Under the pieces are notes generated by a model, which was not told the origin of the DNA, searched no databases, and worked only from the letters and a program-made list of their open reading frames with translations. Position numbers and translations under genes: made by a program. Positions 20,857-38,149 of a stretch of 44,857 bases of DNA are shown piece after piece (the first letter of the stretch is position 1; each line of letters opens with the position of its first letter). Source of the stretch: Escherichia phage phiA2-1; sequence record OR861626.1; one strand, written 5' to 3'.

Positions 20857-21467
20857 TCCTAAGATTTGAGGAGTTAACTAAGTTCTTTTCCTCAATTTGA
20901 GGAGGAGTTGACAGCACCATTGCCGCCACGCGCCTAAATATACCTAAAGATAGCCAGTTGTCTTTAGCAAATCGTGCTATTTATCGACAATTTCACCATA
21001 AATCACAGTTACACGTAACCGATGTAACTCGATGTATACAATCTCATCCGCGGGAAATGATATACGCGCTGTTACGCCAATTTACGCATTGGTTACATTA
21101 AAATATCTATATATATCAACCTTTTACTCTTATTATTATTATTATATATATTACTGTGTATATCATGTAACTACTTCTATAGAGTGTTCCGGTTATAATT
21201 TTAATATCATGTGGATTTATACAGTATTGCGCGGCAGCTATACCAATGCACCCTCAGCGAGAAACGGCATACACGATATACACGATGTTTACATTGAGCT
21301 ATGGCTGGCTTGAGATGCCAAAAAGCGTAACTAGTGCCAATGCCTACACGAAATTACAAAGATTCACGCGTAAACTTAAATCAACGATTTGCAAAACCAA
21401 TTGGACTGGTTACGGTGCTGAATATATAGTTACCTCATCGAAAGCAATCAACCAGAGAGATATATAA
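20857..21467. promoter_or_regulatory. Large AT-rich divergent control region with (TTA)n and (TA)n tracts
   Basis: 611 nt without a credible ORF; (TTA)5 near 21127..21145; TATATATAT; palindrome CCTCAAATTGAGG; separates minus-strand block from plus-strand early block. Confidence 0.4.
20920..20981 (-). promoter_or_regulatory. Promoter-like cassette (minus orientation) for the 20832 gene
   Basis: Minus strand AATAGCACGATTTGCTAAAG, 22 nt, TATATT. Confidence 0.45.
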
Positions 21468-21665: not shown

Positions 21666-22637
21666 ATGACATTTAAAGTTTACACGAACGACGAACTAAC
21701 CAACGAGGCTTATCACGAAGAGCAAGACCATATCTCTGGCTCATCACTGGCTGAGATTCTCGCAACCTCACCAGCTAAATGGAAATTCAAGCAGCGCAAT
21801 AACTCCAGCGCAGCACTTAAGTTTGGCACTCTGAGTCATACGATGATGCTAGAGCGCGAGGTTTTCGATTCAACCTACATGCGAGCCACTGACTTTGACG
21901 AAGTTGAAGGATTGATCACAAGCCAAACAGCTTTATCAGCAGCACTTAAGAAAGTTGGTGTTTCTGGTACGTCAGGAGAGGGCTATAACGAGCTCGTGGA
22001 GATGATGTATAAGTCTGGCGAGGATTGGCCTGTTAAATGGCTAATTGAGCAGCAGGAGAGCGCTGAGGCATTGATTAGTGGCAAGGAGTTGGTTACTGCG
22101 AAAGATTACGACAAGGTAATCTCAATGCGCGAGGTTCTGACCAATATTCCAGCTTACGATTCGGTCATTAATTCACCAACAGCACAGAAAGAGTTATCCA
22201 TCTTTGGTGAGATTTTAGGTTGTGGCGTAAAGGTTAGGCTTGATCACGTTGATGTTGTTGATGGCGTTGTCTACATTACTGACTATAAAACGACGGCAGA
22301 CGCAAGCCCTCGATGGTTTGGTAAGTCGGCTTATGACCATGGATACCTTTGCAAGATGGCACTTCAACGCGATTTGTTTGTGAATGCATTCAGCGAGAAG
22401 CGCAAGGTTGTGGTTCGCCTCCTGGCGCAGGAGAAAACTGAGCCTTACTTACCTATGTGCTACACGCTTACAGATGAGCAGCTTCGCATTGGGCGCATTC
22501 AGTATCTTGAAGCACTGGCTACATACAAACAGTGCAAGGAACTTGATGTGTGGCCTGGTTACAGTAATGGGATTACAGAGCAAGATTTAATGATTCCTGA
22601 GTGGGTAAGTAAAAAGTATCAAGAATTGCTGAAATAG
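21666..22637 (+). CDS. PD-(D/E)XK-family exonuclease (recombination exonuclease, putative)
   Basis: RLDHVDVVDGVVYITDYKT contains a D...D/E-x-K nuclease signature; adjacent to Erf-family gene. Confidence 0.55.
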   Translation: MTFKVYTNDELTNEAYHEEQDHISGSSLAEILATSPAKWKFKQRNNSSAALKFGTLSHTMMLEREVFDSTYMRATDFDEVEGLITSQTALSAALKKVGVSGTSGEGYNELVEMMYKSGEDWPVKWLIEQQESAEALISGKELVTAKDYDKVISMREVLTNIPAYDSVINSPTAQKELSIFGEILGCGVKVRLDHVDVVDGVVYITDYKTTADASPRWFGKSAYDHGYLCKMALQRDLFVNAFSEKRKVVVRLLAQEKTEPYLPMCYTLTDEQLRIGRIQYLEALATYKQCKELDVWPGYSNGITEQDLMIPEWVSKKYQELLK

Positions 22638-22707: not shown

Positions 22708-23358
22708 ATGAAGACTTCAGAGCAAAACAAGCAAGTATTGAAGGCGTTATTTGAGGCTAAATCAAAGTTTGCCAAGGCTGAAAAATCAAAGCAGAACTCG
22801 CACCTAAAGAACAAGTACGCCACTTTAGATGATGTTTTAGCGGCGGTTGAGCCGGGCCTGGCGGATAGCGGATTGGTAATGTTTCAGTCAATGGTTGATG
22901 ATGATGTTAGCTCTCGTATTAAGGTTGAGACTACCGTATACCATGCCGAGTCTGGAGAATGGGTTAGCTTCCTGACAATCGTCCCAATCAGCAAGCAAGA
23001 TGCTCAAGGTTATGGCTCATCACTCACATACGCTCGCCGTTACGCAATTACAGCGGCATTAGGATTAAGCCAAGCAGATGATGATGGTCAGCTGGCAGTT
23101 AAAGGAATTAACTCATTTAAGAAGGATTTGGCTAAGTGCAATACGCTTGATGACCTTCGTGATGTTTACAAAGAAGCGAAACAGTCACTTGATTCAGCAG
23201 GCTGGCTAGTGCTCGAGCCTCACATCATCGAGAGGAAAGCTGAGATTCAGGCTAATGCAACTAACGGTTTTAATCCTGCAAAACCTAAGCAAGTTGCACA
23301 AAAGAATGTTCAAGAAGAAAAAGTTGAAGTACAATCTCAAGAAATCGATACATTCTAA
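22708..23358 (+). CDS. erf: Erf-family single-strand annealing protein
   Basis: 216 aa; GSSLTYARRYAITAALG resembles the Erf signature; sits between exonuclease and SSB. Confidence 0.7.
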   Translation: MKTSEQNKQVLKALFEAKSKFAKAEKSKQNSHLKNKYATLDDVLAAVEPGLADSGLVMFQSMVDDDVSSRIKVETTVYHAESGEWVSFLTIVPISKQDAQGYGSSLTYARRYAITAALGLSQADDDGQLAVKGINSFKKDLAKCNTLDDLRDVYKEAKQSLDSAGWLVLEPHIIERKAEIQANATNGFNPAKPKQVAQKNVQEEKVEVQSQEIDTF

Positions 23359-23398
23359 TTTAACGGGGCTGCGGCCCCAACATTAAGAGAGAAAGAAA

Positions 23399-23830
23399 AT
23401 GAGTCACGTAATCACTGGTGTTATCCGTCGCGCTCCGTTCACTAAAGAAGGTCAGAATGCCAATGGCACCTGGAAGATGTACGCAGTTGATTTAAACGAG
23501 CGATACAAGGATAAAGATGGACAGGCGCATTATAGCAACTATCGCGCCGTGTTCTTCGCCAAAGAATCAATGCTTGCTTGGTACGATGAGGCTTTCCAGG
23601 AGGGGAAGGTTGTTAGCGTAAGTTGTGAAACATTGGCTGTAGACGTTCGTGATAAAGATGGTAAAACTTATGTAACAATCAACATGAACAACCCGCGACT
23701 TGAGTTTAGTCAGCGTGGTGAAGGTGTCCAGCAACAACAGCAACAGCAAAAACCACAACAGCAACAGCAACAACAGCAGCAGCGTCAACCTCAACAGCAG
23801 AAGAACTTCGAGGATGATATCCCCTTCTGA
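23399..23830 (+). CDS. ssb: Single-stranded DNA-binding protein with Gln-rich linker
   Basis: 143 aa; OB-fold-like N-terminus; poly-Q linker; acidic C-terminal tail ending DDIPF. Confidence 0.75.
   Translation: MSHVITGVIRRAPFTKEGQNANGTWKMYAVDLNERYKDKDGQAHYSNYRAVFFAKESMLAWYDEAFQEGKVVSVSCETLAVDVRDKDGKTYVTINMNNPRLEFSQRGEGVQQQQQQQKPQQQQQQQQQRQPQQQKNFEDDIPF
23720..23800 (+). repeat. (CAR)n trinucleotide repeat encoding the poly-Q linker of SSB
   Basis: CAGCAACAACAGCAACAGCAA...CAACAGCAGCAGCGTCAACCTCAACAGCAG. Confidence 0.6.
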
Positions 23831-23839
23831 TAAAAGACA

Positions 23840-23864
23840 AAGCCCCTTTCGGGGGCTTTTTTAT
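23840..23864. terminator. Bidirectional terminator between ssb (+) and tail fiber gene (-)
   Basis: AAGCCCC-TTTC-GGGGGCTT plus T-run. Confidence 0.55.
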
Positions 23865-24949
23865 GGCATATTTACTCGAATTGAAACGAAAGAGTCAGAA
23901 GGAATATCTATAGGATCGCCGTTACTAAAACCTTCAACTTTATTTCTTGCAAAGGACGGGGATGAATCGTGAGTTCGATGGTAAGTTTTTACTACTATTG
24001 ATCCATTAGACTCAACCTCATAATCTAGCCATATTCTTGGCTGCTTGTTTGCATCTAAAGGTATCTCAAAGCCACCATTAACACCACCCCAGGAGGCATC
24101 CGAATTTAGACCAAGCACACCTGATACCCTATAAACACCAGTGGAAACTCTCTCCACTGTAGCTCCCTTTGATTGCTCGTTTGTTTCAAAACCACCATCA
24201 CTGAAGACTTTAATTATAGGAGAAGCCTTTTTAAGGAAACCGTTAGAGTCTACGGTTACGTTTTGTGAGTGGTAAAGTTCCATGAACCCAAGGCCGTTAT
24301 TATAAGTTGAGTTAGCTATATAGCATCTCCTTTCCGCATAAGAAACGGCAAGCTGAGCCCACTCTCTAGCAGTTGGTCCAGGCATATCCATAAATACAAC
24401 ATAATCTAGGTAGTATAAGTTGGTTGGACTAATAGGTTCATATCCATACGTCCAGGTTGTTTTGGGCTTGTCGGTTCGCATTATCCTTGATCCAAAAACT
24501 AGTTGAACTTGCCCAGGTTCATAGCCATGATCAATGACAGCAGAAGTTCCAAGCCCGAGGTTGTTACGCGCTTCAGGTGCTGTACTAGCTCCTGTTCCTC
24601 CGTTCTCTAATTTTACATTCCCATCATCACCACCGCTCACATAATTATTTGACTGATAAAATCTAAGCGTCTCGGCTACGTCCTGTGCCAAACCCTGAAC
24701 TGTAATACCATCATGAAGAAGAATGGCGTAACCAGTTCCAGCAGCAACGGTTTCAGAATTAGGGTTGTAAACATTAATCTGCGTGTCGCTGATGATTTCA
24801 GAGATAGTGTAAATCTTCACTGGTTCAGTCTTGAAAACAATAGTGGCGCCAACACGAATCAGCGTAAGCGGAGCCATCCAGGTAGTCCCAACACCAGTTA
24901 CAGTGCCGTTAGCTGCCAGGCTGGCTGTTCCAGCGTCATAAATTGCCAT
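23861..24949 (-). CDS. Tail fiber protein (putative receptor-binding fiber)
   Basis: Track ORF to 24979; likely start ATG 24949 after GGAG (MAIYDAGTASLAANGTVTG...); GGTGASTAPEARNNLGLG fiber-type motif. Confidence 0.5.
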   Translation of the reverse strand: MAIYDAGTASLAANGTVTGVGTTWMAPLTLIRVGATIVFKTEPVKIYTISEIISDTQINVYNPNSETVAAGTGYAILLHDGITVQGLAQDVAETLRFYQSNNYVSGGDDGNVKLENGGTGASTAPEARNNLGLGTSAVIDHGYEPGQVQLVFGSRIMRTDKPKTTWTYGYEPISPTNLYYLDYVVFMDMPGPTAREWAQLAVSYAERRCYIANSTYNNGLGFMELYHSQNVTVDSNGFLKKASPIIKVFSDGGFETNEQSKGATVERVSTGVYRVSGVLGLNSDASWGGVNGGFEIPLDANKQPRIWLDYEVESNGSIVVKTYHRTHDSSPSFARNKVEGFSNGDPIDIPSDSFVSIRVNMP

Positions 24950-25012
24950 TGTAAGGTCTCCATTTGTAAAATAGCACAATTTGCTAAAACTAATTCTACC
25001 ATCTTTAATGCA

Positions 25013-37521: not shown

Positions 37522-38149
37522 TCGTTGGATTTATTGATTGTTGAAGCTACTGCAATGATTCACATCATTATTGCACGTATAGCAATATTGCATTTAATGC
37601 AATGATGTTTTTGATTGTTGCAGAATTTGCAATGATTGATGTGGGATTGAATGAATAGAGGATGGACTACCATACAAGTTGATTTTGATTCTGGCTGAGC
37701 CACTTTTCTGTATACGCGTAACGCCTGTATACTCACTGTAGTCACAAAAGTAAGTGACCACTAACATACGTTTTTTACGCAGCATATACACTTGACATAC
37801 ACTATAAGTATATAATATATATATACTTCTTCTTTATTATTATTATTATTATTATATGTATACCGTGTATACCGCTCATTGATGGAATAGTTGATATGTT
37901 CCTCTGTTATATTCTGACACACGTCAGAATTGGATGACACTTGTCAGAATAAAAAGGCGCATATATAGGAAATCAGCTCAAAAAACCGTATACAGAGGAT
38001 ACTGCAAGGTTACAACCAGTGCTGGCGCGGCTTTGAGTGCCGAAGGGCGTAACTATGATGAAATATACTAAAATATACATTGACAGACACGTAAATCACT
38101 GGCACTATAGCAATCACTGAAACGCAGTACACAACAACGAGGTATTGAG
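37522..38149. promoter_or_regulatory. Large divergent control region with direct repeats, inverted repeats and a (TTA)7 tract
   Basis: TGCAATGAT x3 (about 37550, 37597, 37627); TGTATAC x4; GTCACAAAAGTAAGTGAC; TTGACA and TATAAT; (TTA)7 at about 37834..37856; GTCAGAAT x2. Confidence 0.45.

What the first reader, a model, noticed from the sequence alone, without database searches (positions are those of the whole stretch)
23720..23800. SSB carries a poly-glutamine linker encoded by a (CAR)n repeat
The linker before the acidic DDIPF tail is QQQQQQKPQQQQQQQQQRQPQQQ, encoded by a near-perfect CAA/CAG repeat. Bacterial-type SSB linkers are usually Gly/Pro-rich, so a poly-Q linker is unusual. The repeat is also a likely hotspot for slippage and length polymorphism, and it creates the spurious antisense poly-Leu ORF at 23567..23794.
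Basis: seen in the sequence. Interest (0 to 1): 0.45.

Follow-up and report, generated by a model that had tools for sequence, protein, structure and literature searches.

The report
Glutamine-rich linker in phage SSB

Summary
Observation confirmed. Gene 23399..23830 (+) encodes a 143-aa SSB. It has an OB domain (residues 1-~101), a linker of which 20 of 24 residues are Gln (7Q-KP-9Q-R-Q-P-3Q, nt 23729..23800) and the tip FEDDIPF.

The window is Escherichia phage phiA2-1 (Drexlerviridae, Braunvirinae). The gene ends the exonuclease-Erf-SSB module, as in phages Rtp and T1.

- The Q-rich linker is not an assembly artefact. All 120 closest homologues have one (61.5% Gln pooled, length 23-35), and so does phage Rtp.
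- "Unusual" is overstated. Gln is the commonest linker residue across most of this phage SSB family. The E. coli SSB linker is itself described as Gly/Gln/Pro-rich. At 69% Gln and almost Gly-free, the Rtp-like group is the compositional extreme.
- Slippage-type length polymorphism is seen among relatives: (CAGCAA)3 versus (CAGCAA)5, and a 3-nt indel between near-identical contigs.
- Composition is still filtered. Glu and Leu are almost absent and net charge is always positive.
- The antisense poly-Leu ORF is a by-product of the repeat.

Verdict: ordinary, low-to-moderate interest, a new member of a known kind.

The parts
23399..23830 (+). SSB gene (143 aa plus TGA stop; a second stop TAA follows at 23831-23833). 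It is 100% identical to 'ssDNA binding protein [Escherichia phage phiA2-1]'.
23399..23701 (+). OB-fold ssDNA-binding domain, residues 1-~101.
   Evidence: AlphaFold2 gives pLDDT of about 77-92 per 10-residue block, with beta strands and one helix at 56-65. The top Foldseek hits are bacterial SSB and PriB. Family profile A1 matches PDB SSBs 7f2n (6.7e-12), 1eqq (6.4e-8) and yeast Rim1, whose match reaches only profile position 121 of 160 (5.4e-6).
23720..23806 (+). Predicted disordered linker, residues 108-136 (EGVQQQQQQQKPQQQQQQQQQRQPQQQKN), 69% Gln, net basic, no PxxP motif.
   Evidence: pLDDT is below 50 for residues 102-139.
23729..23800 (+). Mixed CAA/CAG tract (10 CAA and 10 CAG, interrupted by AAA CCA, CGT and CCT) encoding 7Q-KP-9Q-R-Q-P-3Q. 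It is a slippage-prone repeat.
23807..23827 (+). Acidic C-terminal tip FEDDIPF. Its last five residues are identical to the E. coli SSB tip ...DFDDDIPF.
   Evidence: alignment to 1eqq; tip variants in relatives
23839..23859 (.). GC-rich hairpin AAAGCCCC-TTTCG-GGGGCTTT flanked by T runs. It is a likely bidirectional terminator between ssb and the convergent tail-fibre gene.
23567..23794 (-). Antisense 75-aa ORF with poly-Leu. It is a by-product of CAR read on the opposite strand as YTG, not a gene.
22708..23358 (+). Erf-family single-strand annealing protein, directly upstream in the same module.
   Evidence: PF04404 E=4.8e-28; phrog_155
21666..22637 (+). RecE/exonuclease VIII-like PD-(D/E)XK nuclease, the first gene of the recombination module.
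   Evidence: PF12684 E=7e-22; phrog_412 E=2e-100; synteny with Rtp rtp47-49

Best explanation
The tract is the intrinsically disordered linker of a Drexlerviridae (T1/Rtp-type) phage SSB.

The protein has a remote but genuine bacterial-type OB domain that binds ssDNA. A linker of about 30 residues, polar and mildly basic, follows it. The protein ends in an acidic tip (FEDDIPF) that copies the tip of the host E. coli SSB.

Inferred mechanism:
- The linker acts as a flexible tether that presents the host-like tip to partners. These partners would be the host proteins that dock on the SSB tip, and probably the phage's own exonuclease and Erf recombination proteins.
- This would matter for a phage whose relative Rtp has a primase and a helicase annotated but no DNA polymerase.
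- By analogy with the Gly/Gln/Pro-rich E. coli linker, it may also contribute amide-rich contacts between SSB molecules.

The near-homopolymeric Gln composition is a lineage-specific extreme of that low-complexity design. Replication slippage in the mixed CAA/CAG repeat generates it and keeps it variable. Selection holds length at 23-35 residues, excludes acidic and hydrophobic residues, and keeps a QPQQQ element before the tip.

Shown here: identity, fold, predicted disorder, conservation, polymorphism and the compositional filter. Inferred: partner recruitment and cooperativity.
For: Identity and fold:
- phrog_44 'single strand DNA binding protein', E=5.3e-29.
- The family profile hits Klebsiella SSB, E. 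coli SSB and yeast Rim1.
- AlphaFold2 gives a confident OB domain and pLDDT below 50 for residues 102-139. The top Foldseek hits are all SSB or PriB.

Context:
- The exonuclease-Erf-SSB order, convergent with a tail-fibre gene, matches Rtp rtp47-49, which the Rtp record describes as similar to T1 gp29-gp27.
- The Rtp record annotates a primase and a helicase but no polymerase.

Conservation:
- All 120 homologues at 80% identity or more carry a Q-rich linker and an F..IPF tip.
- Q130, P131 and Q133 are at least 90% conserved.

Hypervariability and slippage:
- Some pairs have identical 104-aa OB domains but different linkers.
- L013 and L014 differ by (CAGCAA)3 versus (CAGCAA)5.
- L015 and L016 differ over 903 nt only by one 3-nt indel and one substitution, both inside the repeat.

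Compositional filter:
- The tract core is Q 75.5%, P 8.6%, R 4.9%, K 4.3% and H 2.0%.
- Glu and Leu are 0.1% each, although both lie one base from CAA/CAG.
- Net charge is +1 to +5 in every homologue.

Literature:
- The E. coli linker is Gly/Gln/Pro-rich and hypervariable and is needed for cooperativity and condensation (PMC7290993, PMC7584906, bioRxiv 10.1101/2021.08.19.456831).
Against: - There is no experimental information on this protein or on any Rtp-like SSB. ssDNA binding, oligomeric state and partner binding are all inferred.
- Similarity to canonical SSB is remote for the single sequence. Pfam PF00436 gives no hit at E<=1 and TIGR00621 scores 19.3 bits against a cut-off of 53.95.
- The cited E. 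coli work attributes most of the linker effect to Gly, which is nearly absent from this tract. Transfer of the cooperativity and condensation role is therefore uncertain.
- The homologue set is clustered at 90% identity and its members are phylogenetically related. Counts of variable linkers and residue frequencies are not independent observations.
- The L015 and L016 contigs have low coverage (1.6x and 3.3x), so their indel could be a sequencing error.
Confidence: 0.78

Rival explanations
1. Adaptive poly-Gln module. The Gln-rich composition would itself be the functional element rather than a mere spacer. It might drive co-condensation or cooperative assembly with the host SSB's Gln/Gly/Pro linker. 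Alternatively it might be a fast-evolving surface that tunes partner choice or helps evade host defences that respond to phage SSBs. Slippage would supply the variation.
For: - Gln richness is kept in all 120 close relatives despite rapid turnover of the exact sequence.
- Glu and Leu are excluded and the net charge is always positive.
- Linker amides are implicated in E. coli SSB condensation (bioRxiv 10.1101/2022.01.17.476650).
- Several defence systems respond to phage SSBs (bioRxiv 10.1101/2022.08.27.505566; bioRxiv 10.64898/2026.02.22.705581).
Against: - The defence work concerns unrelated SSB families (T7 gp2.5-like, T5, T4), and its escape mutations are not reported in linkers.
- The same family functions with Gly/Asn/Ser/Ala-rich linkers containing 5-50% Gln, so Gln is not essential.
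- Nothing here tests condensation.
Confidence: 0.2
2. Neutral runaway repeat. The linker needs only to be disordered and roughly the right length. Gln dominance would then simply reflect slippage-driven expansion of CAR codons, with no selection on composition.
For: - Clean repeat-unit indels occur between relatives.
- Linkers differ greatly between proteins with identical OB domains.
- Linker composition differs widely across the family.
Against: - Glu and Leu are one base from CAA/CAG, as are Lys, Pro, Arg and His. Yet Glu and Leu are about 40-80 times rarer than Lys, Arg or Pro.
- The length range is narrow, 23-35 with median 30.
- The QPQQQ element before the tip is conserved.
- These three points indicate purifying selection on composition, length and part of the sequence.
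Confidence: 0.15
3. Contingency or phase-variation locus. Repeat slippage would switch SSB, or its tip, on and off by frameshifting.
For: A tandem repeat lies inside a coding region. A +1-frame ORF (23700..23972) runs through the repeat.
Against: - The repeat unit is 3 or 6 nt.
- Both indels examined at the DNA level are multiples of 3 (3 and 12 nt).
- All 120 homologues keep the frame through to the tip.
- SSB is a core replication and recombination protein.
Confidence: 0.02
4. Assembly or sequencing artefact, or the antisense poly-Leu ORF is the real gene.
For: Low-complexity repeats can be mis-assembled, and the antisense ORF is 75 aa long.
Against: - The tract is only 72 nt.
- It is present in frame in more than 120 independent assemblies and in isolate genomes, Rtp among them.
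- The sense frame has strong family support.
- The antisense open stretch is broken at different places in relatives, ranging from 44 to 168 aa.
Confidence: 0.01

Closest known systems
SSB of Escherichia phage Rtp (rtp49, CAJ42253.1) and the T1 gp27 lineage of Drexlerviridae SSBs
   Same: - Same position at the end of the exonuclease-Erf-SSB module, convergent with a tail-fibre gene.
- Same 143-aa length.
- OB domain about 88% identical.
- Same type of Gln linker; Rtp has a run of 12 Gln.
- D-IPF tip.
   Different: - The exact linker sequence differs: 7Q-KP-9Q-R-Q-P-3Q here, against QPQQNNR-12Q-RQQP-5Q in Rtp.
- The tip is FEDDIPF here and FDSDIPF in Rtp.
- More distant Drexlerviridae SSBs (tonn, HazelMika, Opt-79) have longer linkers that mix Gln with Gly, Asn and Pro and carry a host-like GWGQPQQP motif.
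Escherichia coli SSB (PDB 1eqq; Pfam PF00436 / TIGR00621)
   Same: - Three-part design: OB domain, disordered low-complexity linker, acidic tip ending DDIPF.
- The family profile aligns across the whole protein.
- Gln is one of the three over-represented linker residues in E. coli (PMC7290993).
   Different: - The single sequence does not reach the Pfam or TIGRFAM thresholds.
- The linker is about half as long: about 29 residues against about 54.
- It is 69% Gln against 20%.
- It has 1 Gly against 15.
- It has no PxxP motif.
- Oligomeric state is unknown.
Eukaryotic poly-glutamine tracts encoded by CAG/CAA repeats
   Same: Gln runs are encoded by mixed CAG/CAA codons, vary in length in frame through slippage, and lie in a disordered segment.
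   Different: - The runs are short (9 Gln or fewer here, 12 or fewer in the relatives seen).
- They are interrupted by Pro, Lys and Arg.
- There is no evidence of large expansions or aggregation.
- The context is a phage replication and recombination protein.

Membership tests
Bacterial-type SSB (OB-fold SSB; Pfam PF00436 / NCBIfam TIGR00621) | The sequence matches the curated family model above its threshold. | tested here: not met
   Pfam gives no PF00436 hit at E<=1. TIGR00621 gives E=0.0011 and 19.3 bits against a cut-off of 53.95. Only 2 of 36 family members touch PF00436, with a best E of 2.7e-4.
Bacterial-type SSB (OB-fold SSB; Pfam PF00436 / NCBIfam TIGR00621) | The OB-fold domain is homologous to SSB at profile or structure level. 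| tested here: met
   Profile A1 against PDB gives 7f2n at 6.7e-12, 1eqq at 6.4e-8 and Rim1 at 5.4e-6; the Rim1 match reaches only profile position 121 of 160, so it owes little to the linker and nothing to the tip. The AlphaFold2 OB domain has pLDDT around 90. The top Foldseek hits are SSB and PriB at probability 0.9-1.0, although TM-scores are low at 0.3-0.5.
Bacterial-type SSB (OB-fold SSB; Pfam PF00436 / NCBIfam TIGR00621) | An intrinsically disordered, low-complexity linker follows the OB domain. | tested here: met
   pLDDT is below 50 for residues 102-139. The linker is 69% Gln.
Bacterial-type SSB (OB-fold SSB; Pfam PF00436 / NCBIfam TIGR00621) | A conserved acidic C-terminal tip ends in D-I-P-F with a free C-terminus. 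| tested here: met
   FEDDIPF is followed directly by TGA TAA. It aligns to DFDDDIPF of E. coli SSB.
Bacterial-type SSB (OB-fold SSB; Pfam PF00436 / NCBIfam TIGR00621) | The protein forms a homotetramer (or dimer of two-OB chains), binds ssDNA with high affinity, and its tip binds partner proteins. | not testable with these tools
   This needs biochemistry. No multimer prediction was available.
PHROG 44 (phage single-strand DNA binding protein) | The sequence matches the family profile. | tested here: met
   E=5.3e-29, 102.8 bits, residues 1-143.
Drexlerviridae (T1/Rtp-type) recombination module | Gene order RecE-like exonuclease, Erf, SSB, next to a convergent tail-fibre gene. | tested here: met
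   for the window. The same order is found in Rtp, Opt-79, HazelMika and tonn, and in metagenomic contigs.
Repeat-based contingency (phase-variable) locus | Repeat-length change shifts the reading frame or switches expression. | tested here: not met
   The repeat unit is 3 or 6 nt. Observed indels are 3 and 12 nt. All 120 homologues stay in frame through to the tip.

The most novel reading that the evidence does not exclude
The Gly-free, roughly 70% Gln linker of Rtp-like phage SSBs could be a selected, fast-evolving functional module. It might let the phage SSB mix with, or out-compete, host SSB assemblies and so capture host proteins that bind the SSB tip. Slippage in the CAA/CAG tract would provide rapid length tuning, and possibly a way to escape host systems that sense phage SSB-ssDNA complexes.
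Probability: 0.12. Interest if true: 0.55.

Novelty: new member of a known kind. Interest (0 to 1): 0.25.

Why it matters
The practical value is small. The result fixes the annotation: a divergent SSB that Pfam misses, with domain, linker and tip boundaries, and an antisense ORF that should not be called.

For people who study SSB linkers, the Rtp-like clade is a natural series of short linkers that are nearly free of Gly and acidic residues, vary by single repeat units and sit on almost identical OB domains. That series could help separate the contribution of Gln side-chain amides from that of Gly backbone amides to cooperativity and condensation, which the E. coli literature leaves open.

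For phage genomics, the tract is a predictable site of in-frame length differences between otherwise identical isolates.

Tried and rejected
- Single-sequence searches against Pfam, NCBIfam and PDB sequences gave no significant SSB hit. Only the PHROG profile and a family profile built from distant relatives did.
- The search for related loci with the single protein found nothing in IMG/VR. With alignment A2 it gave 8 loci.
- Megablast of the region against the phage collection gave at best 87.7% identity over 72% of the query, so no near-identical isolate genome was found there for this region. I used metagenomic contigs for the DNA-level comparisons instead.
- I tested for avoidance of pure repeats. 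The longest same-codon run is 3 among 20 Gln codons, which I judge (not computed) close to what a random CAA/CAG mix would give, so there is no evidence for it.
- CAA is enriched in linkers: 53% in 13 loci against 30% in the window's long ORFs (Fisher p=2e-8). The loci are related, and I draw no functional conclusion.
- I looked for a link to defence systems triggered by phage SSBs. Those papers concern gp2.5-like, T5 and T4 SSBs, not this family, and give no linker evidence. The idea is kept only as the speculative reading.
- Literature searches for a described poly-Gln phage SSB linker found none.
- The phase-variation, artefact and antisense-gene readings were rejected, as set out under the rival explanations.

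Full report
**What is in the sequence.**
The + strand ORF 23399..23830 encodes 143 residues ending ...NPRLEFSQRGEGVQQQQQQQKPQQQQQQQQQRQPQQQKNFEDDIPF. The Gln tract spans residues 111-134 (nt 23729..23800).

The codons are 10 CAA and 10 CAG. At the DNA level this is a mixed tract, not a pure repeat. The longest single-codon run is (CAG)3, and CAACAG occurs twice as 2.5 copies. Tandem Repeats Finder reports periods 6, 9, 15 and 21 with 70-83% matches.

The tract is far beyond chance. A (CAR)7 pattern matches only here, against none in 100 shuffles. At the genome's 3.8% Gln frequency, the chance of 20 or more Gln in 24 residues is about 3e-25. The next longest Gln run in any frame is 4. The antisense ORF 23567..23794 with poly-Leu is present as described.

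**What the gene is.**
The protein is 100% identical to 'ssDNA binding protein [Escherichia phage phiA2-1]', found on a 44,857-bp contig. That phage is an unclassified member of Braunvirinae, Drexlerviridae. The gene is the last of a module:
- a RecE-like PD-(D/E)XK exonuclease, 21666..22637;
- an Erf annealing protein, 22708..23358;
- the SSB.

A GC hairpin at 23839..23859 and a convergent tail-fibre gene follow. Phage Rtp has the same arrangement in rtp47-49, which its record describes as similar to T1 gp29-gp27. So do other Drexlerviridae.

The single sequence misses the curated SSB models. Pfam PF00436 gives no hit, TIGR00621 scores 19.3 bits against a cut-off of 53.95, and there is no PDB hit by phmmer. 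Other evidence establishes the family:
- It matches phrog_44 at 5e-29.
- A profile of 36 diverse family members (A1) hits Klebsiella SSB (6.7e-12), E. coli SSB (6.4e-8) and the mitochondrial SSB Rim1 (5.4e-6). The Rim1 match reaches only profile position 121 of 160.
- AlphaFold2 gives a confident OB domain for residues 1-~101 and pLDDT below 50 for residues 102-139.
- The best Foldseek matches are all bacterial SSB or PriB OB folds, though with modest TM-scores.

The protein is therefore a divergent bacterial-type SSB with a disordered linker. Its tip shares the last five residues with E. coli SSB.

**Is the Gln linker unusual?**
Within its own clade it is not.
- All 120 closest cluster representatives (80% identity or more) have a Q-rich linker. 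Pooled, it is 61.5% Gln. Length is 23-35 residues with a median of 30.
- Rtp itself carries a run of 12 Gln.

Across the whole family, 62 representatives at 50% clustering were found by an exhaustive search with the OB domain alone. Among 28 of them with a recognisable tip, Gln is the commonest linker residue in most, at 5-51% of the linker. Several members carry a GWGQPQQP motif and an EPPMDFDDDIPF end, both like the host SSB.

The literature describes the E. coli linker as over-represented in Gly, Gln and Pro (PMC7290993). It also describes it as hypervariable (bioRxiv 10.1101/2021.08.19.456831). In my count the E. coli linker is 20% Gln and has 15 Gly.

What sets the Rtp-like group apart is degree. 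The linker is about 69% Gln, has almost no Gly, is about half the E. coli length, and has no PxxP motif in the window or in 110 of 120 relatives.

**Repeat dynamics.**
- Proteins with identical 104-residue OB domains carry different linkers.
- L013 and L014 differ in the gene region by a single 12-nt indel that turns (CAGCAA)3 into (CAGCAA)5.
- L015 and L016 align over 903 nt with one 3-nt indel and one substitution, both inside the tract.
- Both indels examined at the DNA level are multiples of three, and all homologues stay in frame through to the tip. The tract is therefore a source of in-frame length variation, not a frameshift switch.

Two caveats apply. The database is clustered at 90% identity, which enriches for linker differences. 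The L015 and L016 contigs also have low coverage.

**Evidence for constraint.**
- In the tract core of the 120 homologues, the non-Gln residues are Pro 8.6%, Arg 4.9%, Lys 4.3% and His 2.0%.
- Glu and Leu are 0.1% each, although they are equally one base away from CAA/CAG.
- Net charge is +1 to +5 in every case.
- Q130, P131 and Q133 are at least 90% conserved.
- The length range is narrow.

The linker is therefore not free to drift. It is kept polar, non-acidic and of limited length.

**How it most likely works.**
Shown here: a three-part SSB design, with an OB core, a disordered Gln linker and a host-type tip.

Inferred from established knowledge of E. coli SSB (PMC7290993, PMC7584906, PMC10164576):
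- The tip docks onto host proteins that bind SSB.
- The linker provides reach.
- By analogy, the linker may add amide-rich contacts between SSB molecules that favour cooperative binding or condensation (bioRxiv 10.1101/2022.01.17.476650).

The Rtp record annotates a primase and a helicase but no DNA polymerase. This makes use of host replication proteins through a host-like tip plausible. The position next to the exonuclease and Erf genes suggests a role in phage recombination.

That study attributes most of the linker effect to Gly, which is scarce here. Whether a Gln-only linker behaves alike is open.

**Antisense ORF.**
CAA/CAG read on the other strand gives TTG/CTG, both Leu, with no stop codons. 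The open stretch ranges from 44 to 168 residues among relatives, and in Rtp it is limited to the repeat. It is a by-product of the repeat.

**Verdict.**
The 'unusual' label is overstated. The slippage prediction is supported by comparison with relatives. This is an ordinary, already-annotated phage SSB whose linker is a compositional extreme of a known design. Interest is low to moderate, mainly as a natural series of linker variants.

Noticed in passing
L018 2501-3404 (relative of the window; also proteins P0009 and P0125); the corresponding window site is 23828-23860: In some relatives the SSB ORF runs 15-18 residues past DIPF (A[SP][LF]GLQY..H.I..L). A 142-aa endonuclease gene (phrog_2340, E=4.9e-40; no Pfam hit) sits directly after and overlapping the ssb 3' end. 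The same extension occurs in a relative only 46% identical in the OB domain. This looks like a homing-endonuclease insertion aimed at the conserved tip-coding end, and it would mask the free C-terminal Phe. It is absent from the window.
   Followed up: partly
window 23729-23800 and the same tract in 12 related loci: CAA makes up 53% of Gln codons in the linkers, against 30% in the window's long ORFs (Fisher p=2e-8, non-independent sequences). The cause is unknown.
   Followed up: partly
L003 and L004 (phages HazelMika and tonn); proteins P0121, P0151, P0164: More distant Drexlerviridae SSB linkers contain GWGQPQQP and EPPMDFDDDIPF, nearly identical to segments of the E. coli SSB tail. This suggests either shared ancestry with, or copying of, the host tail.
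   Followed up: no
window 23366-23379: A small GC hairpin (ggggc-tgc-gcccc) lies in the 40-nt gap between the erf stop and the ssb start, with no T tract. It may be an RNA processing or attenuation element.
   Followed up: no
window 21130-21145 and 37834-37855: There are perfect (TTA)5 and (TTA)7 microsatellites elsewhere in the genome.
   Followed up: no
window 23861-24979 (-): The convergent neighbour is a 372-aa tail-fibre protein with a Phage_tail_C_2 domain (E=6e-59). It is much shorter than the 2.9-kb Rtp tail-fibre gene at the same position, which indicates receptor-binding module exchange.
   Followed up: no
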